Origin: Candidatus Hydrogenedens sp.
GTDB taxonomy: Bacteria > Hydrogenedentota > Hydrogenedentia > Hydrogenedentales > Hydrogenedentaceae
Direction: 5' to 3'
NCBI GenBank assembly: GCA_049968235.1
Contig: JBMFRC010000001.1
Location: forward strand, 256,001 to 320,000
DNA length: 64,000 bases
Shown here piece by piece: positions 17,301 to 64,000 of the stretch; position 1 is the first letter of the stretch; each line of letters starts with the position of its first letter. The notes beneath the pieces were generated by a model, which saw nothing but the letters and a program-made list of their open reading frames with translations, was not told the DNA's origin and did no database searches. A program made the position numbers and the translations under genes.

Positions 17301-20300
17301 TTAGCGTTGCCGTCTCCGCAGTGTGAATACACCTGCCAGTGCACTCAACGCACTAACTAGTGCTATACTCACGGCACCTGCAACAGGTATGCCACTGCCT
17401 TTCGTCAATGTTGCAACACTGCTATATATGACATCCGTCAGGTCATCACTTATCACACAGCGATATTGACCTACATCTTCCTCATTAAACGGCGTGAATA
17501 CAAGTGTATTCGATGTAGCACCGCTGATGTTACCGCCATTGGTCAGGTTCACCCACGCTTTACCACCTTCGCCATCAGATTTCTGCCACTGATAATGCAG
17601 TGTGCCGATACCACCTTGAGCGGTCACACTCATGGAGAAGTTATCGCCCGGTACCACTTCCGCATTGGATATATCACCGGTTATGGAGATATGATTGGCG
17701 ATACGGACACGAGCCTGACTTGACACATGCGTATTTACAAGGTCCGTAATTTCTACCTGATACATATAGGTACCCGGTGTTAATGTGGCTGGGTCAACTG
17801 TCAGGATAAATGTATTTTCTCCAAATTCAACAGAGCCACTATCTACCACAGACCCATTGCGTTTCCACTCATAGGTGTCATAACCGGGGATAAATATACC
17901 ACCGCTGATTGTTGCTCTCAGATCAAATGCTGAGGAATCTACATACGCATCCGCATTCTGCGGTTGCGCTACATACTGCAGGTATTCACCAACATACACG
18001 GTCCGTTCGACCGGTGTGCCCGTGTGTCCGCTATAATCTTTCGGTGTGTAGGTAATCACATACATGCCCGAAGTATTTACATCCACCGTGCCTACAATTT
18101 CTGTCAGAACAGTTACACCGCCCCAGCATGGGTCATCTGCGGTGTATCCCGGTTCAACCCACGGTGTTCCTAATTTCCACGGTAGCGGGTTAGCACCTTG
18201 CAATGTTACTACCGGCAAATCATTGTCCACGACTTCCACTGTGCGATAGACAATGGTTGTCTGCGGATTTTCTGGGTCATGGTCGATTACTTTGTATTCA
18301 ATCTGATATGTGCCGGGTTCGGCAATATTCAGTGTGCTGGTCACAATTACTTCTTCTGTCAAATCACCATCTTCAGGGTCTTGCGCCACATAACCCGGTT
18401 CGACATATTCTTCTTTACAATCAATGCTCATCGGATTATCGCCTAACAGCGTTATCTCCGGTGGCTGGTTCACAATAATCTTCACGACACGGGTCTTTTG
18501 TTCGGCTACATTACCATTGAGGTCTGTATAATCATAGGTTACAACATATTCACCTGCATCAGATGGCAATAATGGGCAATTGCTCGGCACGGCATCTCCA
18601 CCTACGACTGCTTCACCGGTACCATCGCAATTATCTGTCCAGAATGCACCTTCTTCAACATAACAATCAATATTTGCCACTAACAGGACATACGACGCAC
18701 CACGCAATTGGATTTCCGGTGGTGTTACATCGCGCACCGTTACTTGTGCCGTTGCAGATGCCTGATTGCCGTTTACATCATAGGCTGTCAGATTTACTGT
18801 CTGCGGGGTTAACCGGTCAGCACAGGTAAATGTCGTCCGGTCTAATTCAAGATGGTCAATACTGCAATTATCTGTTGTGCCATTATCTACATCTGCCGGG
18901 ACAATAGTTGCCTGATTGGTCTCATCGAGGTCAACCGTAATATTCTTTGTTACCACAGTAGGTGGTAAATTATCCTCAACCATTACGGTCGCCAGACAGG
19001 TATTCTGCAAGTTCGCTCCATCCGTCACTGTCAACAACACCTGATTCTGTCCAATATTGGCACAGGTATATGTTGTTGGCGGAATGCTTAAGCTCAATGG
19101 ACCGCAGTTATCTGTGCTACCACCATCCAATTCGCTTGCAGTAAGTGTGTATTGTCCTGAAGAATTCAGATAGACTGTAATATTCGCACATACCGCTGTA
19201 GGATTGGTTACATCATTTACCGTTATCGTAGCATCGCATGTGCCCTGAGAGCCTGCATAGTCTATCACCGTTACTGTCCTCTGTGTGCTCGGTCTATCAC
19301 CACAGGTGAGGTTTACATTTTCCTGACCACTTACCACTATTTTCCAGATGCCACCGGGCACTGTGCTATTTGCGATGTCCAGTAACGAATTTGCAGGTAT
19401 GATCTGATTACCAGTCTCGTCTAAATCAACGGATATATTCTTGCAAACCAGGTTCATCGGTTGTTTCACCAATTCATACGCACCGCGGTCAGACGCAGAA
19501 TCTTGCGGTCTCGACACACCCTGGATATCGTAGTTCGGACTCGTTAGTGTCGAAGCATCAACGAACGGCGAAGCATTCGTCAATTTGAATGTCGGAGGTG
19601 GGAACACGTTATTGAACAGTGGGTCAACCGTCTGTGATGTATCACTTTCGAGTATCTGTAAGCCCGCACAAGACGGATTCGAAGCAGGGCAGAAGGTCTC
19701 TATGCAACCTGGTACATTCTGCCAGAAGATACTGCTATGAACCTGACCCGAACCCGTCGTATTATAGTTAAATATAGCTGAACTGGTTAAGCCATATAGG
19801 CCACCTGTTGTATTATCAACCGTATTACCTACAAATGTACTGAATTTAATTGTCGGGTCTGCCATATTGTTGAATATAGCACCACCACCACGCATCGGAT
19901 TACCCGCACTATCCAATAACCGATTCGCTCTATTATTGTAGAACACGCAGTTGATTATCGTAGCATTAGCGGAACTACCGCCATAAGATTCATTAGAAAT
20001 CGCACCACCAGATACTGCCGCAATATTGTCATAGAATGTGCAGTTCGCAATTACCGGTTGTGATATCCAGTTATACAAACCCGCACCACGCCATGTATGA
20101 TAATCGCCGGCAACACCGCTGGCACGACCACCACGGATATCAAAGCCATCTATACGAACATTTACGGCAGGTTGTGTTGAACTACCTACAACAATAACAT
20201 GATACGCAGGAGAACCGCCACGCGATACGGAACCATCGATAATTGTTACTACATTCCGCACTGCACGTTTCGCACGAATATCCTCTTGCATGCCCCAGTA

Positions 20301-22769
20301 GCCTTCAAACCCACCATATATCTGAACATTACTTTCTAAAATCAGGGAACCATCTACATTTGCAGGCCCGCCCCATGGAATTGTTCTCAATTCATTATAC
20401 ACATATCCACCGCCATTTGGACCGCCCGCGACCCAGACTTCACCCGCTCCGTCTGCTGCAGCCGCATCTATTCCTTCTTGAATCGTCGCAAATGCAGTCT
20501 CCCAGGTCAAACCATTCGCAACACCGCCCGGTCTCGGTGCCATCTTATCTACACGATATACTGAACCCGTAGGCAAACCGACACCTAAATATACTTCCGA
20601 AGTATATACAAATGAGCCATAAGTTGCTGAGGAAATCTTGCACCGATACCAGCCCGTATCCGTCGGCTGAGCATTGGTTATCGGTAATGACACGGGTCCC
20701 GGACCGGGGATAACTGGACCAATGGCAACTCTGCCTTTCTCCCACTGGAACCGTAAATCTGCACCACCACCCGGTGATATATCGCCATCGCAGGTGAACA
20801 CATGACTATCGCCAATATCAATCATTGCACCTGACGGCTGTAAGGTTACGACTGGCGTGGGCGTGTTTACCTGAACACCCGCCGTACCAGTCGTTATAGA
20901 GTTACCAAATGTAACTGAGGTAATAACACATCGATACAAGCCTGCATCATTTGACGTCGCGGAACTCACATTATAGACATTATTACTATCACCATCAGAT
21001 ACATTCTCCCAGTTACTTCCGCTGAATGTTCTATCTATCTGCCATTGATAACTTAATGTCCCGCTATTTTGCGTCGCATTGCAGGTAATTGAAAATGGAT
21101 TCAACGCGGTAATTGGTGGAGTTGGGTTTACTGTCGGCTGTTGTGTTATGGTAATTGGCGGAGCCTGAACCACCACTTCTACCGTATTGGAATACATAGA
21201 AGCCTTAGTATACGGGTCCGCAATCAGGCAACGGAAGTACCTGGAGCCAATCCAGTCCACCGGATCGATTACCAATACACGCACATTTCCGCCACTCACC
21301 GGCGTAGTCACATTATCCGGGGTGCTACCATAATACCATTGATAATTGAACCGTGGCGTAGAAGGCGGTAAATTATTCGGTGTCCAGATAGTGCCATCAC
21401 CGTTATCCACTGCCACGCTTAATGTCCAGCTATCCTGACCCCAGGTCAACGGCGGACTGGTGCGACCAACTGGCTGGGTCTCCAACCATAATGTGCTCGG
21501 GAAGATGTTTTCACGCAATGCCCATTCCGCTACACCCTGGGCTATAGTCGCATAAACATTGTTCGAATTGAATGTATCAGAATAAGTCAAAAAGTTCGTC
21601 CTGCCATCACCGTTCAAATTACCCGTTGATGGAGCCACCGCTAAATAACTCGTCTGTGGCTGGAACTGGCTCGCCACAACATTGTTATTCGCAAAGTTTC
21701 TAATTGAATTACATACATCACCCTCCAATATGGTCACATGAAGGTCAATAGTACCAATAGGTGAATTCACAGGAACCGTGAAGTCCACCGTCGACGTATT
21801 CCCCCACGGATTGCACACAGTCTTTGACTCCGGCTCCGGTGCATATAATTCAGGATTAGCACCTATAACTATATTCTCAGGAGGAATAGAAGTTAACATT
21901 TTAACAAACTTAGGGTCTTCCATCCCTTTCGTCATATTGCGGATAATATCATCTAACAAATCATTAATAATAATTTGTATCATCTTTCCATACCAGGAAT
22001 ACCAATAATCCATAGCCTTCTGGTCGCCTAAGGTCATATATGCAGCAGTAAAATTAATTAGTGCATCATCCAATCTCGGGTCCGCATCCTCTGCTAAGGG
22101 ACCACCTTTCTCATTTTTCAAAAAAGAAGGCACATCAAAACTTACATCCTGAGATATTAAACATCCCAAACCCGCTTTTAATGTTAGCGTCATTGTTGTA
22201 TTTGTAGTTAAATTTACAGTTTTATCATTGCCACAGCCTGCTATATCTGCACGAAGCCGAACTTGTTGTATGGTAAGTTCTGTATTGCGTGCACGCGTGA
22301 TGTTATTCTGGAAAGCAGTGCGGATAGCATTAACGGTTCCAGAGGGTAAGTTTGTGTTTCTGTTCGGGTCGAGCACCGCATCAAGCAATGCAAAATACCG
22401 CGAATCCACTAACTTAAAACCAGTGCCCTTTGGCGTATAGGACCAAGCACCACTTGGACCAATATTCGTAGTTCCGTGGTCGCTCCTACCATCTGAACCA
22501 TCCCAATACGGACCATCCTGTCCCGTCACCTGACGCCAGTACGCGCTGTTAGCACCAGCACAGTCCTGCGTCCATTGCGGACACAAGCCTAACGACACAA
22601 GCATGTCGTCTATGATATTGTCCATTTCACTTGCCATTTGTTCTAAACTGTTCCAATACTCCGTCCCGTTGTAATACATATACGGGTGCGCCTGTGCCGG
22701 CATGCTTACAAACATAAAAACAAATAACGCCAGCACACACAAGGTTGGGATAAATAATTTTTTACTCAC
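17301..22769 (-). CDS. Giant secreted surface protein (1822 aa) with Ig-like repeats, Pmp-like parallel beta-helix repeats and a C-terminal hydrophobic anchor
   Basis: GTG start with SD GAGAAGGG, then signal peptide MSKKLFIPTLCVLALFVFMFVSMPAQA. Multiple Ig-like repeats (..YRCVISDD.., ..WYRCKISS..). The central region has GGAI/GGGAI and FxxN motifs (FYDN, FYNN, FVGN, FWQN) typical of chlamydial Pmp-type beta-helix repeats. HYR-like NITVDLDETxxxxI repeats are present. The C-terminus is GSGIPVAGAVSIALVSALSALAGVFTLRRRQR. Confidence 0.7.
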   Translation of the reverse strand: MSKKLFIPTLCVLALFVFMFVSMPAQAHPYMYYNGTEYWNSLEQMASEMDNIIDDMLVSLGLCPQWTQDCAGANSAYWRQVTGQDGPYWDGSDGRSDHGTTNIGPSGAWSYTPKGTGFKLVDSRYFALLDAVLDPNRNTNLPSGTVNAIRTAFQNNITRARNTELTIQQVRLRADIAGCGNDKTVNLTTNTTMTLTLKAGLGCLISQDVSFDVPSFLKNEKGGPLAEDADPRLDDALINFTAAYMTLGDQKAMDYWYSWYGKMIQIIINDLLDDIIRNMTKGMEDPKFVKMLTSIPPENIVIGANPELYAPEPESKTVCNPWGNTSTVDFTVPVNSPIGTIDLHVTILEGDVCNSIRNFANNNVVASQFQPQTSYLAVAPSTGNLNGDGRTNFLTYSDTFNSNNVYATIAQGVAEWALRENIFPSTLWLETQPVGRTSPPLTWGQDSWTLSVAVDNGDGTIWTPNNLPPSTPRFNYQWYYGSTPDNVTTPVSGGNVRVLVIDPVDWIGSRYFRCLIADPYTKASMYSNTVEVVVQAPPITITQQPTVNPTPPITALNPFSITCNATQNSGTLSYQWQIDRTFSGSNWENVSDGDSNNVYNVSSATSNDAGLYRCVITSVTFGNSITTGTAGVQVNTPTPVVTLQPSGAMIDIGDSHVFTCDGDISPGGGADLRFQWEKGRVAIGPVIPGPGPVSLPITNAQPTDTGWYRCKISSATYGSFVYTSEVYLGVGLPTGSVYRVDKMAPRPGGVANGLTWETAFATIQEGIDAAAADGAGEVWVAGGPNGGGYVYNELRTIPWGGPANVDGSLILESNVQIYGGFEGYWGMQEDIRAKRAVRNVVTIIDGSVSRGGSPAYHVIVVGSSTQPAVNVRIDGFDIRGGRASGVAGDYHTWRGAGLYNWISQPVIANCTFYDNIAAVSGGAISNESYGGSSANATIINCVFYNNRANRLLDSAGNPMRGGGAIFNNMADPTIKFSTFVGNTVDNTTGGLYGLTSSAIFNYNTTGSGQVHSSIFWQNVPGCIETFCPASNPSCAGLQILESDTSQTVDPLFNNVFPPPTFKLTNASPFVDASTLTSPNYDIQGVSRPQDSASDRGAYELVKQPMNLVCKNISVDLDETGNQIIPANSLLDIANSTVPGGIWKIVVSGQENVNLTCGDRPSTQRTVTVIDYAGSQGTCDATITVNDVTNPTAVCANITVYLNSSGQYTLTASELDGGSTDNCGPLSLSIPPTTYTCANIGQNQVLLTVTDGANLQNTCLATVMVEDNLPPTVVTKNITVDLDETNQATIVPADVDNGTTDNCSIDHLELDRTTFTCADRLTPQTVNLTAYDVNGNQASATAQVTVRDVTPPEIQLRGASYVLLVANIDCYVEEGAFWTDNCDGTGEAVVGGDAVPSNCPLLPSDAGEYVVTYDYTDLNGNVAEQKTRVVKIIVNQPPEITLLGDNPMSIDCKEEYVEPGYVAQDPEDGDLTEEVIVTSTLNIAEPGTYQIEYKVIDHDPENPQTTIVYRTVEVVDNDLPVVTLQGANPLPWKLGTPWVEPGYTADDPCWGGVTVLTEIVGTVDVNTSGMYVITYTPKDYSGHTGTPVERTVYVGEYLQYVAQPQNADAYVDSSAFDLRATISGGIFIPGYDTYEWKRNGSVVDSGSVEFGENTFILTVDPATLTPGTYMYQVEITDLVNTHVSSQARVRIANHISITGDISNAEVVPGDNFSMSVTAQGGIGTLHYQWQKSDGEGGKAWVNLTNGGNISGATSNTLVFTPFNEEDVGQYRCVISDDLTDVIYSSVATLTKGSGIPVAGAVSIALVSALSALAGVFTLRRRQR

Positions 22770-57029: not shown

Positions 57030-58562
57030 TTATCTAGTTTCCTGGGGTAGAAAATACTTCTTGATAAGGTCTAAATCTATATTGGGATACACAGGATATT
57101 GTTGTAATAATTCCAATACTCTTGCCTTTTGCTTTTTCTGGATAGAAGCGTCTAATACAAAATTCTTCCTGGAAGGTTTTCCTGCATTGGGTCCTTCACT
57201 TAGAATTTCTGGTTTTGTTTCATCTAAAACATCTTTAATAATTGATGCTATTTCTTTCATTTCTACTCCACCCATGCCCAGAGTGGTTACCGCGGGAGTT
57301 CCCAATCGGAGTCCACTTGTAATTAAAGGTCCATTAGGGTCAAAGGGCAAGGAATTGAAATTAAGTGTAATACCACATGCTCGTAATGCCCCTGCGGCTT
57401 GTCTGCCCGTTAAACCGTGACTTTCCTGAACATTTAACAACATCAAATGATTATCTGTTCCTCCTGTTGCAACTACCAATCCTTCACTTTTCAGAGATTC
57501 CGCCAGCATCTGTGCATTACGAACAATCTGCCTCGCATAATCACAAAATTCAGGGCGGTTTGCTTCTGTAAAAGCAACTGCTTTGGCAGAAAGAACATGA
57601 GGTAAAGGACCTCCTAAAACTAATGGACAACCTTTATCTACAAACTCAGCAAATTCTTTCTTGCAAAGAACAATCCCACCCCGGGGACCGCGCAGAGTTT
57701 TATGCGTGGTGGATGTAACAATATGAGCATGAGCCACCGGGTCATATTCCCCTTGAAATACTTTACCCGCTACCAGCCCTGCGAAGTGAGCCATATCTAC
57801 CATCAAAACAGCACCTACTTTATCGGCAATCTCACGAAGGCATGCAAAATTAATTTTGCGAGGATAAGCACTATAACCTGCCAGTAAAATGAGCGGTTTT
57901 ATTTCTTGAGCCATTCTCTCTATCTCGGTATAATCTAATAAACCGGTATCCCGACGAACGGTATAAGAATACGCATCGAACATTTTTCCTGAAATATTTC
58001 GACGGTAACCATGTGTAAGATGACCACCGGAATAATAATCCATTCCTAATAATCGCTGGTTACCCATCTTTTCACGAATTTTTTGCCATTGTTCTTGTGT
58101 AACTTTCGATGGGTCTTTTATATCCAGTTGTTCCAATTCCGGTGTTTCAATTTTCGCAGATAAAATTGCCCAATAAGCAACTAAATTGGCATCTGCACCA
58201 CTGTGAGGCTGGACATAGGCATGCTCTGCGTCAAATAATTTCTTCGCCTGTTCGCAAGCAATTGCTTCAATTGAATCTACATTTCCACAACCTTCGTAAA
58301 ACCGTTGATACGGTATTCCTTCTGCATATTTATCAGTCAATAGATTTGCCATTGCAAACTGCGTTGACAAAGAACAATAATTTTCACTTGCAATCAATTT
58401 TAGATAACTTCGCTGATCTATCAATTCCTGCACGATCCCTGTGGACACTTGAGGAGATACTTTGGCTACTTCTGCTAAATTACATAAGTAGCCTAAAAAT
58501 CCCGAATCCAGTTTGTCCGGCGGAGTAGAACCAATATACTCAATAATAGACGGGTGTATCAT
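57030..58562 (-). CDS. glyA: Serine hydroxymethyltransferase (with N- and C-terminal extensions)
   Basis: LIASEN, GGHLTHG and PLP-lysine region TTHKTLRGPRGG. At 510 aa it is roughly 90 aa longer than typical GlyA because of N-/C-terminal extensions and one insert. Confidence 0.85.
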   Translation of the reverse strand: MIHPSIIEYIGSTPPDKLDSGFLGYLCNLAEVAKVSPQVSTGIVQELIDQRSYLKLIASENYCSLSTQFAMANLLTDKYAEGIPYQRFYEGCGNVDSIEAIACEQAKKLFDAEHAYVQPHSGADANLVAYWAILSAKIETPELEQLDIKDPSKVTQEQWQKIREKMGNQRLLGMDYYSGGHLTHGYRRNISGKMFDAYSYTVRRDTGLLDYTEIERMAQEIKPLILLAGYSAYPRKINFACLREIADKVGAVLMVDMAHFAGLVAGKVFQGEYDPVAHAHIVTSTTHKTLRGPRGGIVLCKKEFAEFVDKGCPLVLGGPLPHVLSAKAVAFTEANRPEFCDYARQIVRNAQMLAESLKSEGLVVATGGTDNHLMLLNVQESHGLTGRQAAGALRACGITLNFNSLPFDPNGPLITSGLRLGTPAVTTLGMGGVEMKEIASIIKDVLDETKPEILSEGPNAGKPSRKNFVLDASIQKKQKARVLELLQQYPVYPNIDLDLIKKYFLPQETR

Positions 58563-58616: not shown

Positions 58617-60503
58617 TTATTCAAAATTCATGATGTAACTGTAAACTCCTTCATGGAGTTGTGATTCTACTTTCAGACCACTCCGTTCAAATACCGCCTG
58701 CATAGGTTTGTTCTCACGCAGAACTTCGGCTGTAAACCCTGCAATACCATTACGACGGGCTATATTTATCAAATGACGGAAAAGGAAAGAACCAATTCCC
58801 CGGTTTTGCCATTCATCCTGAACAACGAACGCTACCTCTGCACGGTTCGTTTTCGGATTTAAGTAATAACCACCCATTGCAACAATTTCTTCTCCATCTG
58901 GATCGGGAACTGTGGCTACAATGGATACTTCATTACGATGGTCAATATACACAAATTCCTGAACCTGTTTGCGAGGGACCCATTTCATACGGCTCATAAA
59001 ACGTTTATATAGGGATTCCTGCGATAGAGAATAAAACAGTTCACGTATACGCGGTTCATCGGTTGGGTGTATAGCACGAATTGTTACGGAAGTTCCATCA
59101 TCACAAATATAAGTAGTGCGGATGTCCCTCGGACCTATTACAATCTTATTCTTAAAGTCTGTAAGTTCAGGACGAATATATTTTGATTCGATTGCTTCCA
59201 TTAATAACTTTTCGCGGAATTTTGGATGTGCAATACTAATAAGAGCCAGAGCGCGTTCCTGAACATTTTTCCCATGTAAATAGGCAACACCATATTCGGT
59301 GACAACATAATGGACATCGCCTCGGGTCGTTACAACTCCGGCACCTTCACTCAAATGACAAACAATTCGCGATACCTCTCCATTATGTGCAGTAGATGGT
59401 AAAGCAATTATGGTTTTTCCTCCATTAGAGCGAGCCGCTCCACGATTAAAATCAACCTGCCCACCAATACCGGAGTAGAATTTAGATCCCATGGAATCGG
59501 CACATACCTGCCCTGTTAAATCTACTTCTAAAGCAACATTAATAGCCACCATCTTGTTTTGTTGCGAGATAACAAACGGGTCGTTTACATATTCTGTCGG
59601 ATAGAAAGAAAATTGGGGATTGTTATGCAAATACTCATAAAGTTTTTTGGTTCCCATAGCAAAACTTGCAACGATTTTACCGCGGTCCAATGTTTTCCGT
59701 TTCCCGGTAATAATCCCTTTTTCTATAGGCTCTATAATCGAATCGGTTAACATCTCGGTGTGTATTCCCAAATCCTTTTTATCTTCTAAGAATTGAATTA
59801 CAGCCTGGGGAATACGGCCTATCCCCAATTCCAGAGTGGCACCGTCCTCTATCAAACCTGCAATGTATTGCCCTATCTCACGGGTAACATCATCCGGCTC
59901 GGCTATGGGAAATTCAATTAGCGGTTCATCCACAGGAACGAGATAATCAATATCATGTACATGGATAAAACAATCGCCCATTGTTCTGGGCATCTGCGGA
60001 TTTACCTCTGCAATAACCAATCGTGAATTTTCCGCTGCACTTTTCACGATATCCACAGAAATTCCTAAACTGCACATACCATCTTCATCCGGAGGAGAGA
60101 CCTGAATAAGTGCTGCATCCAGGGGTAACTGTCCTGTTTTAAATAAACGAGGAATATCGGATAAAAATATGGGGGTATAACCGCCTAACCCTTCCTGAAT
60201 AATATGACGGACATTCTGAGCAATGAAAAAACTATTTACCGTAAAATGATTAATCAAGTCTTTCTGGGCGTAGGGAGCATCCCCTAAAGTTAGCAAGTGC
60301 ACAATTTCTATATCTGCCAGGTCTGCATGCCTTGCTACCAATGCATCTACTAACCGTTGAGGTTGGGCACAACCCGTCCCAATAAAAACGCGGAAACCCG
60401 GTTGAATGCGAATTACCGCTTCCTGAGAGCTTACTACCATATCGGAATATTTTTCTTCCCAATTCGGGTCAAAATTCATTTCTTTTTTGGATATATCACT
60501 CAT
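58617..60503 (-). CDS. Acetyl-CoA hydrolase/transferase-family domain fused to C-terminal GNAT acetyltransferase domain
   Basis: The N-terminal ~430 aa have CoA-transferase family patterns (GGYTPIFLSDIP..., EVDLTGQV, YSGIGGQVDFNRGA..GGKTIIALPST). The C-terminal ~170 aa carry a GNAT motif (EVAFVVQDEWQNRGIGSFLF...). The start overlaps the upstream ACD gene by 8 nt. Confidence 0.6.
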   Translation of the reverse strand: MSDISKKEMNFDPNWEEKYSDMVVSSQEAVIRIQPGFRVFIGTGCAQPQRLVDALVARHADLADIEIVHLLTLGDAPYAQKDLINHFTVNSFFIAQNVRHIIQEGLGGYTPIFLSDIPRLFKTGQLPLDAALIQVSPPDEDGMCSLGISVDIVKSAAENSRLVIAEVNPQMPRTMGDCFIHVHDIDYLVPVDEPLIEFPIAEPDDVTREIGQYIAGLIEDGATLELGIGRIPQAVIQFLEDKKDLGIHTEMLTDSIIEPIEKGIITGKRKTLDRGKIVASFAMGTKKLYEYLHNNPQFSFYPTEYVNDPFVISQQNKMVAINVALEVDLTGQVCADSMGSKFYSGIGGQVDFNRGAARSNGGKTIIALPSTAHNGEVSRIVCHLSEGAGVVTTRGDVHYVVTEYGVAYLHGKNVQERALALISIAHPKFREKLLMEAIESKYIRPELTDFKNKIVIGPRDIRTTYICDDGTSVTIRAIHPTDEPRIRELFYSLSQESLYKRFMSRMKWVPRKQVQEFVYIDHRNEVSIVATVPDPDGEEIVAMGGYYLNPKTNRAEVAFVVQDEWQNRGIGSFLFRHLINIARRNGIAGFTAEVLRENKPMQAVFERSGLKVESQLHEGVYSYIMNFE

Positions 60504-62604
60504 GGCTTGTTTTAAGACCTCCTAATATCATTCGTGCATCCGCCACTGTTGGTGGAGTTCCTACTTCGCCAACAATAAACGGGTTAATATCAATTTCATG
60601 AATACCGGGGAATTCTGTGGCTAATTGACTCATTTTTTGTAGAGCCTGGGCTATCGCATGGACATCCACCGCAGATTGTCCTCGGGTTCCTTTTAATAAT
60701 GCATAAGAACGAGTTCCCACAAGCATCTGTAAGGCTTCTTCCTCTGTTATTGGGGCAAGATAAAAACTAACATCTTTCATCACTTCTACAAAAATACCGC
60801 CCAGTCCAAACATCAACATAGGACCAAATTGTGGGTCGCGATGCATCCCTAAAATTACCTCTCGACCCTGTTTTGCCATCTTTTCCACATAAATACCCTG
60901 AATTTTTGCATTTGGCATTTTACGGATTACGCGGAGCATCATTAAGTCGAAGGCATCGCGCACTTGAGAAGGATTGGATAGGTTTAAACGAACACCTCCG
61001 ATATCAGACTTATGGATAATATCCGGTGAAACGATTTTCATAGCCACTGGATAGCCAATTCGGTCTGCAATGGTTACTGCCTCTTCATCTGTTCGAGCCA
61101 ATGCCCCTGGTGGGACATAAAAATCATACGCCTGCAAAATCTCTTTTGCATCTACTTCGTTGATAAAGGTTCTTCCTTCTCGCATCTGACGACGAATAAT
61201 CCGTTCTATTCTTCTGCGGTTTACCGGAAAACGCATCACAACCCGCGGAGGTCTACGCCTCCATGCGGAATAATCACACATTGCTTTCAATGCATATACT
61301 GCCCGTTCCGGGGACGGGTAATCCGGGAGATTTGCTAACACCAATTCATCCCGCGCCGGCATAACATCCGCTCCACCCATGAATGCTGCCAGAACAGGTT
61401 TATTCCCCCGCAAATTTTTAATAATGGCTCGGGCTGTTTCTGCAGGCTGAGTCATGGCTTGTGGAGTTAATATAACAATTACAGAATCAATTGTATCATC
61501 ATCCAAAGCCGCATTTAGAGCCATAGCATAGCGTTCCGGGTCGGCATCCCCCAATACATCGATTGGATTTGCAACACTCGCCGCAGGAGGCAACTTTTGT
61601 TTCAGTGCAGAGGATATTTCTGTTTGCAATGGTTTGACTTGTAAACCCGAGTTTTCTACAGCATCTGCTGCCATAATACCGGGACCACCTGCATTGGTTA
61701 TCACCGCAACACGATTTCCCTTAGGTAAAGGTTGCATCGCTAACGCAGAAGCGTAGTCAAATAAGGATTCGAAGGTCTCTGCTCGAATAACCCCTGATCT
61801 ACGAAATGCAGCTCCATATGCAATATCTTCCCCTGCAAGACTACCCGTATGCGATGATGCGGCTCGACTACCTGCCTGTGTCGTCCCTACTTTCAAAATA
61901 ACTACCGGTTTTATCGATGCTACTTGTTCCGCTATTTTTATAAATTCTTCTCCACGCACAATATTTTCCAGATAACACGCAATAACTCTTGTTTGTTCAT
62001 CTTCACCCAACATTTGTAACAAATCAATTTCGGATATATCCGCTTTATTCCCAATGCTAATCAACTTAGCCAGACCTACACCACGACCTACAGACCAGTC
62101 CAAAATGGCTGTGCATAAGGCCCCTGATTGCGATATTACAGAGATGGAACCTTTACGAGGCATCTGGGTGGCAAAGGAAGCATTCATATTGTTCTCTGTG
62201 TTAATAATCCCCAAACAGTTCGGACCTAACAATCTCATGTGATGTTCTTTACAATACTGGGCTATTTCCTTCTCCAATAAAGCACCTTCAGGTCCTACCT
62301 CCTTAAAACCCGCAGTAATAACGCAAACGGATTTTGCTCCTGCCTGAAATGATTCTTCCAATGCGGATTTCACCAATTTGTTGGGAACTACAATAATAGC
62401 AAAATCAATGGGAATACCTGCATCTTTAGGCGTCTTGTAACATTTTAAACCTAATACTTCATCTGCGGAAGGATTTACGGGAATTACTTTCCCAGCAAAA
62501 CCGGAGGAAATTAAATTGTTTAATATGGAATATCCTACTTTGCCCGGGGTCCTTGATGCCCCAATTATTGCAATACTTTTAGGTCTTATAAGTGTTTCAA
62601 GCAT
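60496..62604 (-). CDS. ADP-forming acetyl-CoA synthetase (fused alpha/beta NDP-forming acyl-CoA synthetase)
   Basis: N-terminal CoA-binding domain (SIAIIGASRTPGKVG), succinyl-CoA-synthetase-like ligase region with a His-containing loop, and a C-terminal ATP-grasp (GYPVAMKIVSPDIIHKSDIGGV). Confidence 0.7.
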   Translation of the reverse strand: MLETLIRPKSIAIIGASRTPGKVGYSILNNLISSGFAGKVIPVNPSADEVLGLKCYKTPKDAGIPIDFAIIVVPNKLVKSALEESFQAGAKSVCVITAGFKEVGPEGALLEKEIAQYCKEHHMRLLGPNCLGIINTENNMNASFATQMPRKGSISVISQSGALCTAILDWSVGRGVGLAKLISIGNKADISEIDLLQMLGEDEQTRVIACYLENIVRGEEFIKIAEQVASIKPVVILKVGTTQAGSRAASSHTGSLAGEDIAYGAAFRRSGVIRAETFESLFDYASALAMQPLPKGNRVAVITNAGGPGIMAADAVENSGLQVKPLQTEISSALKQKLPPAASVANPIDVLGDADPERYAMALNAALDDDTIDSVIVILTPQAMTQPAETARAIIKNLRGNKPVLAAFMGGADVMPARDELVLANLPDYPSPERAVYALKAMCDYSAWRRRPPRVVMRFPVNRRRIERIIRRQMREGRTFINEVDAKEILQAYDFYVPPGALARTDEEAVTIADRIGYPVAMKIVSPDIIHKSDIGGVRLNLSNPSQVRDAFDLMMLRVIRKMPNAKIQGIYVEKMAKQGREVILGMHRDPQFGPMLMFGLGGIFVEVMKDVSFYLAPITEEEALQMLVGTRSYALLKGTRGQSAVDVHAIAQALQKMSQLATEFPGIHEIDINPFIVGEVGTPPTVADARMILGGLKTSHE

Positions 62605-62872
62605 AAAAAATCCCTAATCTATAAAAATAATTCTTGTTATTTTGTTTGCCTTTCTGGAACAAAATTGACATTCCAATAATTTTAGAAAAATTGGAATTTT
62701 TATAATATTATATTCCTTTTCCAGACCTCATTTCCATATAACATATTGTCTTATAAAAAGTAGAAATCAAACCCATATAAAAAACTCTACATAAACTACC
62801 ACACATAAAAGACGCACAATAATTATAAGGCTTTCACTTGGGTTGAGTAACTACATAATATTCTCAGTTAAA

Positions 62873-64000
62873 TTACCCTTTCTCTCCGCGAATGATAGTA
62901 TACAGTGCGTTTACCGCATTCTTTAATTGAACCGCCTGAGCAGAAAGTTCTTCTGCTGTGGAAGCGGTTTCTTCGGAAGTTGCAGAAATATTTTGTGATA
63001 CTTGATTGATTGAGGATAGAGCCAGATTAATCTGCTCAATACCTTGTGCTTGCTCTATAGTTGTTGTTGAAATTTCAGTGATAAGGGTAACCGTTTTTTG
63101 AACGGATTCTGTAATTGTTTGTATGGCAGAGAAAACTTTTTCAGATACCTCCGCCCCTTTAGCAACATTGACTTGTGATTGCTTTAACAATTCTGCTGTT
63201 TCTTTTGCGGCAAGGGCACTACGTTGTGCCAAATTACGTACTTCCTCTGCAACTACAGCAAAACCTCGCCCGGCTTCACCTGCACGAGCCGCTTCTACTG
63301 CAGCATTAAGTGCCAGTAAATTTGTCTGAAAGGCAACCTCTTCTATCGTTTTGATAATTTTGGCTGTTTCATCAGATGATTTCTTAATCGCGGACATAGC
63401 CTGATTAAGTTCTGTTACTGCTATTGAACTCTGTTCTGTAGCATTCTGAATTTCTAATATTTTGTTTTTGGCTTCTTCTGAATTTGAGGCACTCTCCTGT
63501 ACATGAGAAGAAATTTCTTCCAGTGAAGCAGAAGTCTCTTCTAAGGAAGATACCTGATTACTTACCTGAGAAGCCATATCCTGACTACTGCTGGCTAAAT
63601 GTTCAGAAGCGCTATCTACCTGATTGGCAGATTCGTTCAATAGATTTGATAAATCCATCATATGTGAAGTCAATCGTCTTGCCATAAAGAACCAAAACAA
63701 TAATGATACTACCAGCGTTAGTACAGATAGGGTAATTACTAAAATAATCTGATTTTGGAATGCCCCTCGAATTTTAGATTCCACTTCCTGAAGTTCATCC
63801 ACATAAGCACTGCAACCGATAACCCAATCCCATGGTTCATAATACATAATCATGGCTATTTTTTTACGGGGCGTAATATCGTCTGCTTTTTTCCATGTGT
63901 AATAATGAATTGCTGTTTCTTTTCCTTTTAATGTTAATGCTTTGTTTATAATGTTCTGTATAAAATATTCTCCATTGGCATCTTTTGTTTCCCATTCATT
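62873..64000 (-). CDS. Methyl-accepting chemotaxis protein with Cache-like sensor (5' end beyond window)
   Basis: C-terminal MCP signalling domain (LALNAAVEAARAGEAGRGFAVVAEEVRNLA). The reading frame continues upstream of the annotated Met to the window edge (…YFIQNIINKALTLKGKETAIHYYTWKKADD…YYEPWDWVIG), which looks like a Cache sensor domain. A TM helix follows the Cache region. Confidence 0.7.
   Translation of the reverse strand, partial: NEWETKDANGEYFIQNIINKALTLKGKETAIHYYTWKKADDITPRKKIAMIMYYEPWDWVIGCSAYVDELQEVESKIRGAFQNQIILVITLSVLTLVVSLLFWFFMARRLTSHMMDLSNLLNESANQVDSASEHLASSSQDMASQVSNQVSSLEETSASLEEISSHVQESASNSEEAKNKILEIQNATEQSSIAVTELNQAMSAIKKSSDETAKIIKTIEEVAFQTNLLALNAAVEAARAGEAGRGFAVVAEEVRNLAQRSALAAKETAELLKQSQVNVAKGAEVSEKVFSAIQTITESVQKTVTLITEISTTTIEQAQGIEQINLALSSINQVSQNISATSEETASTAEELSAQAVQLKNAVNALYTIIRGEKG

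What the first reader, a model, noticed from the sequence alone, without database searches (positions are those of the whole stretch)
58617..62604. Translationally coupled ADP-forming acetyl-CoA synthetase and a CoA-transferase::GNAT fusion
A 702-aa fused alpha/beta NDP-forming acyl-CoA synthetase overlaps by 8 nt (ATGAGTGA) with a 628-aa protein. That protein's N-terminal ~430 aa look like the acetyl-CoA hydrolase/transferase family (4-hydroxybutyrate CoA-transferase-like, YSGIGGQVDF signature) and its C-terminus is a GNAT acetyltransferase. Known protein lysine acetyltransferases of the Pat type fuse an NDP-forming acyl-CoA-synthetase-like domain to GNAT. Here the synthetase is a separate gene and the GNAT is fused to a CoA-transferase module instead, an arrangement I do not recognise. 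It may couple acyl-CoA supply or exchange directly to protein or small-molecule acylation.
Basis: partly seen in the sequence, partly recalled or inferred. Interest (0 to 1): 0.55.

Follow-up and report, generated by a model that had tools for sequence, protein, structure and literature searches.

The report
Pat-like acetyltransferase fused to CoA-transferase
Two tightly coupled genes encode an ATP-making acetyl-CoA enzyme and a protein that joins a CoA-transferase to a Pat-type protein acetyltransferase; the pair is common across several bacterial phyla, has not been studied, and is probably a new way of wiring protein acetylation to acetate and fatty-acid metabolism.

Summary
Both ORFs, the 8-nt ATGAGTGA overlap and all domain calls are correct. 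The catalytic residues of all three CoA-handling units are intact and invariant: ACD His252, CoA-transferase Glu250/GGQ, and GNAT Glu556 with its P-loop.

The arrangement is not rare. The exact protein is deposited as "GNAT family N-acetyltransferase" from Candidatus Hydrogenedens. Full-length relatives at 55-96% identity occur in Hydrogenedentota, Planctomycetota, Verrucomicrobiota, Actinomycetota and others. In 77 of 78 testable loci the ACD gene lies directly upstream, usually overlapping, and the two genes co-diverge (r = 0.90-0.96).

The GNAT domain belongs to the Pat clade of protein lysine acetyltransferases. About 25 related loci add a class-I HDAC-type deacetylase and 12 add an AMP-forming Acs. 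The nearest characterised CoA-transferase, Thermus TtCoAT, is itself the main target of a GNAT and a metal-dependent deacetylase. More divergent fusions have lost the CoA-transferase catalytic residues but keep the GNAT, as Pat did with its dead ACD-like domain.

Best reading: a new architectural variant of Pat-type acetyltransferases, set in an ACD/CoA-transferase module at the acetate and acyl-CoA node. I found no published description, and the substrates are inferred, not shown.

The parts
62707..62736 (-). Promoter-like site (TGGAAA-18-TATAAT, 10 of 12) in the 268-nt AT-rich gap upstream of the ACD gene
   Evidence: Consensus scan, and sequence. Weak evidence only: 25 promoter-like sites were found against 19.6 expected in shuffles.
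60496..62604 (-). Single-chain (alpha-beta fused) ADP-forming acyl-CoA synthetase (ACD), 702 aa, predicted to be catalytically active
   Evidence: Pfam and NCBIfam; TIGR02717 scores 575.6 bits against a cut-off of 567.15. The best solved relative is 8wzu, an ADP-forming 4-hydroxybutyrate-CoA ligase, at 570 bits over the full length.
61849..61851 (-). Codon for ACD His252, the phospho-histidine of the swinging loop (ASSHTGS)
   Evidence: It aligns with H254 of ckcACD1 alpha, where PatZ has a gap. It is invariant in 63 of 63 module ACDs. Codon verified.
60496..60503 (-). 8-nt overlap ATGAGTGA between the ACD stop and the fusion start (translational coupling)
   Evidence: Related loci show overlaps of 4 nt (18 loci), 8 nt (11) and 11 nt (4), or gaps mostly under 25 nt.
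58617..60503 (-). CoA-transferase::GNAT fusion protein, 628 aa
59184..60464 (-). CoA-transferase domain (residues 14-440) of the AcetylCoA_hydro/4-hydroxybutyrate CoA-transferase family
   Evidence: Pfam. It scores 494 bits against 9vag (T. thermophilus TtCoAT) and 394-431 bits against other 4-hydroxybutyrate CoA-transferases. AF2 pLDDT is mostly 80-97.
59754..59756 (-). Codon for Glu250 (GIHTEM), the catalytic glutamate of the CoA-transferase
   Evidence: It aligns with the HTEM/HSEM motif of solved 4-hydroxybutyrate CoA-transferases. It is invariant in 78 of 78 sequences. Codon verified. Identifying this Glu as the CoA-thioester nucleophile rests on established knowledge of the family.
59457..59465 (-). 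Codons for Gly347-Gly348-Gln349, the oxyanion motif within YSGIGGQVDF
   Evidence: Invariant in 78 of 78 sequences; verified.
59094..59183 (-). Variable interdomain linker (residues 441-470)
   Evidence: Only 7% of its columns are at least 95% conserved. AF2 pLDDT is about 28 for residues 448-462.
58620..59093 (-). Pat-type GNAT acetyltransferase domain (residues 471-628)
   Evidence: Its best solved relatives are all protein lysine acetyltransferases: SlPatA GNAT 4nxy/4u5y (69 bits), MtPat 4ava (61), PatZ 9it0 (54), MsPat 4orf (46) and Sulfolobus Pat 3f8k (31). The best NCBIfam match is mycobacterial Pat NF058543, at 85.6 bits against a cut-off of 460.
58836..58838 (-). Codon for Glu556 (NRAEVAF), the GNAT general base
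   Evidence: It aligns with MtPat E235 and PatZ E809 (roles from PMC12184503). It is invariant in 78 of 78 sequences. Verified.
58791..58808 (-). Codons for Gln566-Gly571 (QNRGIG), the motif-A P-loop that binds acetyl-CoA pyrophosphate
   Evidence: Q566 and G571 are invariant; G569 is conserved in 81% of sequences. Verified.
57030..58562 (-). Serine hydroxymethyltransferase, 54 nt downstream on the same strand. It may be co-transcribed in Hydrogenedens only and is not part of the conserved module.
   Evidence: Pfam. No terminator-like site lies between the genes. This gene order is conserved only in loci L001-L006.

Best explanation
The two genes form a conserved, co-inherited and translationally coupled module at the acetate/acyl-CoA node.

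Gene 1 is a catalytically competent ADP-forming acyl-CoA synthetase (acetyl-CoA + ADP + Pi <-> acetate + ATP + CoA).

Gene 2 joins two domains through a flexible linker of about 30 residues:
- a catalytically competent short-chain-acid:acetyl-CoA CoA-transferase, whose closest characterised relative is Thermus TtCoAT;
- a Pat-clade GNAT protein lysine acetyltransferase.

Proposed working:
1. ACD and the CoA-transferase share acetate and acetyl-CoA as common intermediates. ACD charges acetate at the cost of one ATP->ADP, and the transferase passes CoA on to other short-chain acids. Run in reverse, the pair harvests ATP from acyl-CoAs.
2. The tethered GNAT reads the same acetyl-CoA pool and acetylates lysines on acyl-CoA-forming enzymes. 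The most probable target is the active-site lysine of AMP-forming Acs, which would prevent an ACD/Acs futile cycle. The module's own proteins are a possible further target.
3. Where present, a class-I HDAC-type deacetylase acts as the eraser.

The CoA-transferase domain occupies the place that the dead ACD-like domain holds in Pat, as an acyl-CoA-binding partner domain of the GNAT. In this clade it is still an enzyme.

Shown here: domain identities, catalytic-residue conservation, gene linkage, co-divergence and neighbourhood. Inferred: all enzyme activities, the protein substrates and the regulatory logic.
For: 1. All three catalytic centres are intact and invariant. ACD His252 aligns with ckcACD1 H254, which PatZ lacks. 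CoA-transferase Glu250 and GGQ are invariant in 78 of 78 sequences. GNAT Glu556 aligns with PatZ E809 and MtPat E235 and is invariant in 78 of 78, along with the P-loop and Arg501.
2. All nine best-scoring solved matches of the GNAT domain are Pat-type protein lysine acetyltransferases, ahead of a phosphinothricin-acetyltransferase-like protein.
3. ACD lies directly upstream on the same strand in 77 of 78 testable loci across at least six phyla, mostly overlapping by 4-11 nt. Pairwise identities of ACD against the CoAT and GNAT parts correlate at r = 0.90 and 0.955.
4. In 25 of 80 loci a Hist_deacetyl gene lies within about 4 kb, directly downstream in about 20 of them. Its closest solved relatives are class-I HDACs (Clr6, Rpd3, HDAC1/2/8). 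In 12 loci an AMP-forming Acs lies within 5 kb. A representative Acs passes TIGR02188, and all 9 complete copies carry PKTRSGKIMRR, the acetylation-site motif. This parallels acsA-acuABC.
5. TtCoAT is the best solved match (494 bits). It is a short-chain-acid:acetyl-CoA transferase and the major KAT-dependent acetylated protein in Thermus, written by a GNAT and erased by a metal-dependent deacetylase (10.1101/2025.10.31.685773).
6. In 11 of 32 divergent CoAT-GNAT representatives Glu250 is lost, yet all 32 keep the GNAT Glu or Asp and Arg501 (confirmed pairwise for P0227 and P0140). This mirrors Pat's dead ACD-like domain and marks the GNAT as the constant function.
Against: - The 64-kb window has no Acs or deacetylase (tblastn), and the rest of the genome could not be searched.
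- Acs is near the module in only 12 of 80 loci, and the deacetylase is mostly confined to the Planctomycetota clade.
- Lys5, the acetylation site of TtCoAT, aligns with Asp21 here. In Thermus the effect of acetylation works through an accessory protein that is not seen here.
- AF2 gives no confident interdomain packing: pTM is 0.65 and the linker pLDDT is about 28.
- The NCBIfam Pat model scores far below its cut-off (85.6 against 460).
- No biochemical data exist for any member, and a GNAT's substrate cannot be read from its sequence.
Confidence: 0.5

Rival explanations
1. Self-regulating enzyme, with the writer fused to its own substrate. The GNAT domain mainly acetylates the CoA-transferase domain of the same or a neighbouring subunit, or the ACD partner. 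Flux through the ACD/CoA-transferase pair would then be throttled by its own product, acetyl-CoA.
For: The closest characterised CoA-transferase, TtCoAT, is the dominant KAT substrate in Thermus and has a metal-dependent deacetylase as its eraser. A deacetylase of the same broad type abuts the module in about 20 loci. ACD is present in 77 of 78 loci but Acs in only 12 of 80. P0140, whose CoA-transferase is dead, still keeps an abutting ACD.
Against: TtCoAT Lys5 is not conserved and aligns with Asp21. The authors report that this site is limited to Thermus. In Thermus, acetylation changes nothing without the NAD+-sensing accessory protein, which is absent here. I found no report of ACD acetylation. 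No invariant N-terminal lysine was found.
Confidence: 0.2
2. Supply of the acyl donor in cis. The CoA-transferase makes a non-acetyl acyl-CoA (propionyl-, butyryl-, 4-hydroxybutyryl- or lactyl-CoA) from acetyl-CoA supplied by ACD. It hands this to the tethered GNAT, which installs that acyl group on lysines.
For: All catalytic residues of ACD and the CoA-transferase are intact in the ACD-linked clade. The three activities form a chemically consistent relay. TtCoAT accepts various short-chain acids with acetyl-CoA as donor. A CoA-transferase feeding a GNAT for lysine lactylation has been reported in E. coli (PMC9636275, listed; the details are from my own knowledge and I did not read them here).
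Against: Divergent fusions lacking Glu250 and the oxyanion loop keep an intact GNAT, so GNAT function does not need transferase catalysis. AF2 predicts the linker as flexible, with no channel-like packing. CoA thioesters are freely diffusible, and known Pat enzymes take their donor from the pool.
Confidence: 0.15
3. Small-molecule N-acyltransferase. The GNAT domain acylates a metabolite amine such as an amino acid or polyamine, and the module is a biosynthetic or detoxifying pathway.
For: GNATs are very diverse, and sequence alone cannot fix the acceptor. Weak NCBIfam matches to small-molecule acetyltransferases include ArsN1 (21 bits) and PRK10140 (18.5 bits), both far below their cut-offs. 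The Hist_deacetyl family also contains acetylpolyamine amidohydrolases (own knowledge).
Against: All strong GNAT matches are Pat-type protein acetyltransferases, with the same catalytic Glu and the conserved R-F/Y motif. The deacetylase neighbour is closest to class-I HDACs, not to the polyamine-deacetylase type. An Acs with the acetylation-site lysine motif lies nearby. No biosynthetic genes are conserved around the module.
Confidence: 0.07
4. No functional coupling. These would be three independent CoA-dependent activities that are merely co-expressed, with the fusion a neutral accident.
For: There is no direct evidence of physical or kinetic coupling. AF2 shows two independently folded domains.
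Against: The fusion and its ACD linkage persist over 55-96% identity and at least six phyla, with conserved overlapping junctions and tight co-divergence. The same GNAT clade is fused repeatedly to acyl-CoA enzymes: the CoA-transferase, and ACD in both domain orders.
Confidence: 0.05

Closest known systems
Pat/PatZ (type I bacterial GNAT lysine acetyltransferase; E. coli, S. enterica; PDB 9IT0)
   Same: The GNAT belongs to the same clade, with the catalytic Glu (E809 equivalent to E556), the P-loop and the upstream R-F/Y motif. The ACD-type protein (CoA-binding, ligase-CoA and ATP-grasp domains, in the same order) aligns over residues 2-679 at 346 bits. In both systems an acyl-CoA-binding module precedes the GNAT.
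   Different: In Pat the ACD-like part is fused to the GNAT and is dead: the phospho-His loop is missing, with H254 replaced by L245. Here the ACD is a separate gene that keeps His252. A catalytically intact CoA-transferase of about 430 residues sits between it and the GNAT.
SlPatA (type II) and MtPat/MsPat (type III)
   Same: These have the closest solved GNAT domains (69 and 61 bits). Like them, this protein follows the principle of a GNAT plus one metabolite-binding partner domain on a single chain (PMC8556138).
   Different: Their partner domains are a dead ACD-like domain (type II) or a cAMP-, NADP+- or ACT-type ligand-binding domain (type III). No CoA-transferase partner has been described.
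Thermus thermophilus TtCoAT (TT_C1083) / KAT TT_C1711 / KDAC TT_C0104 (bioRxiv 10.1101/2025.10.31.685773)
   Same: The CoA-transferase is the best solved match to the window's domain (494 bits, aligned over residues 19-439). The cast is the same: a short-chain-acid:acetyl-CoA transferase, a GNAT writer and a metal-dependent deacetylase.
   Different: In Thermus these are separate, unlinked genes. The effect of acetylation runs through an NAD+-sensing alanine-dehydrogenase-like protein. The acetylated Lys5 is not conserved here. No ACD partner is reported. I could not determine whether TT_C1711 belongs to the same GNAT clade.
Bacillus subtilis acsA-acuABC (AcuA GNAT, AcuC class-I-type deacetylase, AcsA)
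   Same: In 12-25 related loci, mainly Planctomycetota, a writer, an HDAC-type eraser and an AMP-forming Acs sit in one neighbourhood.
   Different: AcuA is a GNAT-only protein from a different subfamily. That system has no ACD or CoA-transferase. The window itself has no Acs or deacetylase.
ADP-forming acyl-CoA synthetases (ckcACD1 4XYL; Nitrosopumilus 4-hydroxybutyrate-CoA ligase 8WZU)
   Same: The full domain set is present, with the phospho-His and the alpha-beta order seen in 8WZU. TIGR02717 scores above its cut-off.
   Different: This ACD is always translationally coupled to a CoA-transferase::GNAT gene. Its substrate is not assignable, since the 4-hydroxybutyrate-CoA ligase model scores 679 bits against a cut-off of 1300.

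Membership tests
Pat-type GNAT protein lysine acetyltransferases | GNAT fold with the motif-A P-loop Q/R-x-x-G-x-G/A | tested here: met
   Acetyltransf_1/3/4 score above their cut-offs. The QNRGIG motif is at 566-571, with Q566 and G571 invariant.
Pat-type GNAT protein lysine acetyltransferases | Catalytic glutamate equivalent to PatZ E809, MtPat E235 and SlPatA E123 | tested here: met
   Glu556 aligns with E809 and E235 and is invariant in 78 of 78 sequences. The roles of these residues come from PMC12184503.
Pat-type GNAT protein lysine acetyltransferases | Closest sequence relatives are established Pat enzymes and not other GNAT subfamilies | tested here: met
   The top nine PDB matches are SlPatA, MtPat, PatZ, MsPat and SsoPat. 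The best NCBIfam GNAT hit is the Pat model NF058543, but it scores below its full-length cut-off.
Pat-type GNAT protein lysine acetyltransferases (types I/II specifically) | An NDP-forming acyl-CoA synthetase-like regulatory domain on the same polypeptide, catalytically dead | tested here: not met
   The partner domain on the chain is a CoA-transferase. The ACD is a separate gene and keeps its catalytic His. The protein therefore fits none of the five published types.
Pat-type GNAT protein lysine acetyltransferases | Demonstrated acetyl-CoA-dependent acetylation of a protein lysine such as the Acs active-site Lys | not testable with these tools
   This needs biochemistry. The only support is indirect: Acs with the PKTRSGKIMRR motif and an HDAC-type gene sit next to the module in related loci.
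Family I CoA-transferases of the AcetylCoA_hydro / 4-hydroxybutyrate CoA-transferase type | Both the AcetylCoA_hydro and AcetylCoA_hyd_C domains | tested here: met
   They score 98 and 231 bits, above cut-offs of 24 and 23.7. Solved members match at 394-494 bits.
Family I CoA-transferases of the AcetylCoA_hydro / 4-hydroxybutyrate CoA-transferase type | Catalytic glutamate (H-T/S-E-M) and the G-x-G-G oxyanion motif | tested here: met
   Glu250 and G347-G348-Q349 align with the same motifs in 9vag, 3eh7 and 2oas and are invariant in 78 of 78 sequences. Their catalytic role is established knowledge of the family.
Butyryl-CoA:acetate CoA-transferase (TIGR03948 equivalog) | Score above the curated equivalog cut-off | tested here: not met
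   The score is 320 bits against a cut-off of 674.8, so substrate specificity cannot be assigned.
ADP-forming acetyl-CoA synthetase (ACD) | CoA-binding, ligase-CoA and ATP-grasp subdomains together with the phospho-histidine loop | tested here: met
   Pfam. TIGR02717 scores 575.6 against a cut-off of 567.15. His252 aligns with ckcACD1 H254 and is invariant, as are GPNCLG, SQSGA and HKSD.
acsA-acuABC-like writer/eraser/Acs neighbourhood | A deacetylase and an AMP-forming Acs encoded next to the acetyltransferase | tested here: not met
   Neither is in the 64-kb window (tblastn). The feature is met in related loci: HDAC-type in 25 of 80 and Acs in 12 of 80.

The most novel reading that the evidence does not exclude
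ACD and the CoA-transferase::GNAT protein assemble into one complex that acts as a 'live' split version of Pat. It would be an acetyltransferase whose two regulatory modules are still working enzymes, so lysine acylation is gated by actual flux through the acetate/short-chain acyl-CoA node and may use acyl groups made on the spot. Pat's dead ACD-like domain, and the orphan fusions with a dead CoA-transferase domain, would then be degenerate descendants of such a machine.
Probability: 0.2. Interest if true: 0.75.

Novelty: new variant of a known kind. Interest (0 to 1): 0.55.

Why it matters
Reversible lysine acetylation of acyl-CoA synthetases by Pat-type enzymes is the textbook case of metabolic control by acetylation in bacteria. 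The role and origin of Pat's large dead ACD-like domain are still debated.

This module would add a sixth domain architecture to the five recognised types. It is common in poorly studied phyla: Hydrogenedentota, Planctomycetota, Verrucomicrobiota and deep Actinomycetota. Here the partner domains are still intact enzymes. It also gives genomic support to the very recent finding that CoA-transferases are themselves hubs of acetylation control.

The module offers a compact two-gene system that can be expressed to test how acetyl-CoA sensing, ATP-conserving acetate metabolism and protein acetylation are wired together. It also flags thousands of database entries labelled only 'GNAT family N-acetyltransferase' that deserve a better name.

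Tried and rejected
- **Literature.** Six searches for a description of the fusion found nothing specific. A search for TT_C1711 returned only the Thermus preprint, so I could not place that writer in the same GNAT clade.
- **Unfused 'split' version of the module.** I looked for a stand-alone GNAT next to a CoA-transferase or ACD. P0147, P0180 and P0143 are stand-alone GNATs in unrelated contexts. P0192 is a frameshift-fragmented fusion. Cluster names gave no taxonomy.
- **'GNAT only' representatives.** I first treated these as evidence that stand-alone forms are abundant, then rejected that. Many are fragments of fusions from contigs of about 1-2 kb.
- **Co-degeneration of ACD and CoA-transferase.** I considered and dropped this. 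Only the L087 ACD has altered invariant motifs, and the L098 ACD is intact.
- **Pat ancestry.** The PatZ N-domain scores a median of 342 bits against module ACDs. Against PDB ACDs it scores 301 bits, or 317-328 bits when split archaeal subunits are summed. The margin is too small and the comparison set too narrow to conclude anything.
- **AF2 of the fusion.** It gave no usable interdomain geometry (pTM 0.65). No fold search was run because both folds are obvious from sequence.
- **SHMT as part of the module.** Rejected, because this gene order is conserved only within Hydrogenedens.
- **Promoter and terminator scan.** Uninformative beyond one promoter-like site upstream of ACD.

Full report
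**Observation**

The window carries two same-strand ORFs at exactly the stated coordinates: 60496..62604(-), 702 aa, and 58617..60503(-), 628 aa. The upstream gene ends ...CAT GAG TGA and the downstream gene starts at the ATG inside it. That gives the 8-nt overlap ATGAGTGA, with a GGAGG 14 nt upstream of the ATG.

Pfam reads the 702-aa protein as CoA_binding_2, Succ_CoA_lig, Ligase_CoA_2 and ATP-grasp_5. It reads the 628-aa protein as AcetylCoA_hydro, AcetylCoA_hyd_C and a GNAT domain. All of these score above the gathering cut-offs. NCBIfam agrees. The ACD passes the acetate-CoA ligase alpha model, 575.6 bits against 567.15. The transferase part resembles butyryl-CoA:acetate CoA-transferase but falls below the equivalog cut-off. 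The best model for the GNAT part is the mycobacterial Pat model, also below its cut-off.

**Source and abundance**

The exact 628-aa protein is deposited as MGC8737240.1, 'GNAT family N-acetyltransferase [Candidatus Hydrogenedens sp.]'. The closest species-representative locus is Ca. Hydrogenedens terephthalaticus, at 96% identity.

The fusion is abundant. The best 120 clusters were all about 606-670 aa, 63-91% identical, with the same Pfam set. A scan of one genome per species returned 133 confirmed loci, of which 80 were kept. They come from Hydrogenedentota, Verrucomicrobiota, Actinomycetota (Gaiellales, Thermoleophilia), Planctomycetota (Pirellulales, Phycisphaerae, Sedimentisphaerales), Bdellovibrionota, Eisenbacteria and Bradymonadales. 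Some MAG taxon labels are doubtful.

**The pair is a unit**

In 77 of the 78 loci with enough upstream sequence, an ACD orthologue lies immediately upstream on the same strand. The exception is L056, which has a DNA methyltransferase there. By a start-codon heuristic, the junctions are:
- a 4-nt overlap in 18 loci, 8 nt in 11 and 11 nt in 4;
- gaps of 1-24 nt in most of the rest.

Pairwise identities of ACD correlate with those of the CoA-transferase part (r = 0.90) and the GNAT part (r = 0.955) over 63 sequences. The two genes are therefore inherited together.

**Catalytic competence**

- *ACD.* His252 aligns with the phospho-histidine H254 of ckcACD1. PatZ has a gap there, and the PatZ structure paper states that H254 is replaced by L245, which abolishes ACD activity (PMC12184503). 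His252 and the motifs GPNCLG, SQSGA, TNAGGPG and HKSD are invariant or nearly so in 63 module ACDs.
- *CoA-transferase.* Glu250 (GIHTEM) and G347-G348-Q349 align with the same motifs in solved 4-hydroxybutyrate CoA-transferases. They are invariant in 78 sequences.
- *GNAT.* Glu556 aligns with PatZ E809 and MtPat E235 and is invariant. Q566, G571 and Arg501 are also invariant.

**What kind of GNAT this is**

Searched alone, the GNAT region's best solved relatives are SlPatA (4nxy/4u5y), MtPat, PatZ, MsPat and Sulfolobus Pat. All of these are protein lysine acetyltransferases. The next match is far weaker.

An exhaustive search of the GNAT region against 1.84 billion representatives gave 13,132 hits at E <= 1e-3. 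The best 150 break down as follows:

| Architecture | Count |
|---|---|
| Full-length CoAT+GNAT | 29 |
| N-truncated CoAT+GNAT fragments | 34 |
| ACD+GNAT, in both domain orders | 3 |
| GNAT only | 84 |

One of the full-length group is a Fer4+CoAT+GNAT protein of 960 aa. Several of the 'GNAT only' entries are fragments. This GNAT clade is thus fused repeatedly to acyl-CoA-handling modules.

**Neighbourhood**

Beyond the two genes, nothing is universally conserved. Three lineage-specific neighbours are informative:
- A 376-aa Hist_deacetyl protein is present in 25 loci. It lies directly downstream in about 20 of them, directly upstream of the ACD in two, and within about 4 kb in three. Most of these loci are from Planctomycetota. 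Its nearest solved relatives are class-I HDACs.
- An AMP-forming Acs lies within 5 kb in 12 loci. A representative passes the AcsA equivalog cut-off, and all 9 complete copies carry PKTRSGKIMRR.
- An MFS transporter lies between the deacetylase and Acs genes in several of these loci.

This layout resembles the acsA-acuABC arrangement. The window itself has none of these genes. Its surroundings are chromosomal housekeeping genes.

**Literature**

Two sources recognise five architectural types of bacterial GNAT lysine acetyltransferases, and none has a CoA-transferase domain (PMC8556138; PMC12184503). I found no paper describing this fusion.

The closest solved CoA-transferase, 9VAG, comes from a 2025 preprint (10.1101/2025.10.31.685773). 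It reports the following about T. thermophilus TtCoAT:
- it transfers CoA from acetyl-CoA to various short-chain acids;
- it is needed for growth on butyrate;
- it is the major KAT-dependent acetylated protein in the cell;
- it is acetylated by the stand-alone GNAT TT_C1711 and deacetylated by a metal-dependent KDAC;

That is the same cast as here, but unfused. Its main site, Lys5, aligns with Asp21 in the window protein, so the specific mechanism does not transfer.

**Degenerate relatives**

Of 32 divergent representatives with the CoAT+GNAT architecture, 11 lack Glu250 and many lack the GG motif. All 32 keep the GNAT Glu or Asp, the P-loop glycine and Arg501. Pairwise alignments confirm this for two of them:
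- P0227 has HTQM in place of HTEM and ASM in place of GGQ.
- P0140 has E250 replaced by Ala and the oxyanion loop deleted.

Context look-ups show that P0140 and P0139 still have an abutting ACD. Six more divergent dead-transferase fusions (P0216, P0238, P0211, P0227, P0203, P0185) have none.

The GNAT is therefore the constant part of these proteins. The CoA-transferase domain can decay into a non-catalytic partner domain, as the ACD-like domain did in Pat. The ACD linkage marks the clade that includes the window.

**Structure**

AF2 on a 32-sequence alignment gave mean pLDDT 76.8 and pTM 0.65. The linker is very uncertain, with pLDDT about 28 for residues 448-462. The model shows two folded domains on a tether, with no predicted fixed packing or channel.

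**Interpretation**

The best-supported reading (confidence about 0.5) is a new architectural variant of the Pat family. A Pat-clade lysine acetyltransferase is tethered to an active short-chain-acid:acetyl-CoA CoA-transferase. That protein is translationally coupled to an active ADP-forming acyl-CoA synthetase.

ACD and the transferase share acetate and acetyl-CoA. Together they could activate short-chain acids at one ATP->ADP each, or harvest ATP from acyl-CoAs in the reverse direction. The GNAT would read the same acetyl-CoA pool and acetylate acyl-CoA-forming enzymes. AMP-forming Acs is the most likely target, since that would avoid a futile cycle with ACD.

The rivals are:
- self-acetylation of the module, confidence 0.2, supported by the Thermus precedent;
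- supply of non-acetyl donors in cis, 0.15, weakened by the dead-transferase relatives and the flexible linker;
- small-molecule acylation, 0.07;
- no functional coupling, 0.05.

All enzyme activities and substrates are inferred, and none is shown.

**Relation to Pat**

Full-length PatZ aligns with the window ACD over residues 2-679 at 346 bits. The PatZ N-domain scores slightly higher against module ACDs than against solved free ACDs: a median of 342 bits against 301 to 328. This is consistent with descent of Pat from such a module but does not establish it.

**Verdict**

The arrangement is common in databases but generically annotated, and I could find no study of it. I rate it a new variant of a known kind, with interest 0.55.

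Noticed in passing
window 57030-58562 (-): The serine hydroxymethyltransferase is 510 aa, about 90 residues longer than usual, and Pfam matches it in two stretches. It sits 54 nt downstream of the fusion with its own AAGGAG, and no terminator-like site lies between them. This gene order is conserved only in the Hydrogenedens-like loci L001-L006.
   Followed up: partly
window 62873-63853 (-): This ORF for a methyl-accepting chemotaxis protein begins with only the last 25 or so residues of a Cache sensor domain. The gene may be truncated, frameshifted or given the wrong start.
   Followed up: no
L091 6001-8883 (protein P0227): A 960-aa relative carries an N-terminal 4Fe-4S dicluster region, then a CoA-transferase domain with its catalytic residues replaced (HTQM, ASM), then an intact Pat-type GNAT. 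It has no ACD neighbour. It may be a redox-sensing acetyltransferase.
   Followed up: partly
L087 3883-7836 (protein P0140 and its ACD): In this lineage the CoA-transferase domain is dead (E250 replaced by Ala, oxyanion loop deleted) but the ACD still abuts it. That ACD keeps the phospho-His but has GPKSLG and TVSGAL in place of the otherwise invariant GPNCLG and SQSGAL.
   Followed up: partly
L020, L062, L065 (between ACD and fusion): These three loci have repeat-rich spacers of 130-203 nt between the two genes instead of the usual overlap. One example is TTTAGGATTTAGGATTTAG in L062. They may be small inserted elements.
   Followed up: no
L003, L006, L008, L009, L052: These MAGs are labelled 'uncultured Nitrospirales' but carry module genes 74-91% identical to the Hydrogenedens genes, and in L003 and L006 also the Hydrogenedens-specific SHMT neighbour. 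The taxon labels look wrong.
   Followed up: no
window 17301-22769 (-): This ORF encodes an 1822-aa protein with Ig-like and bacterial surface Ig-like repeats. It lies in the most GC-rich part of the window (0.46-0.47 against about 0.39).
   Followed up: no
L082 1-1661: A stand-alone GNAT of the same clade (P0180, 38% identical) overlaps the stop codon of a sensor histidine kinase gene. This hints at another pairing for this clade.
   Followed up: partly
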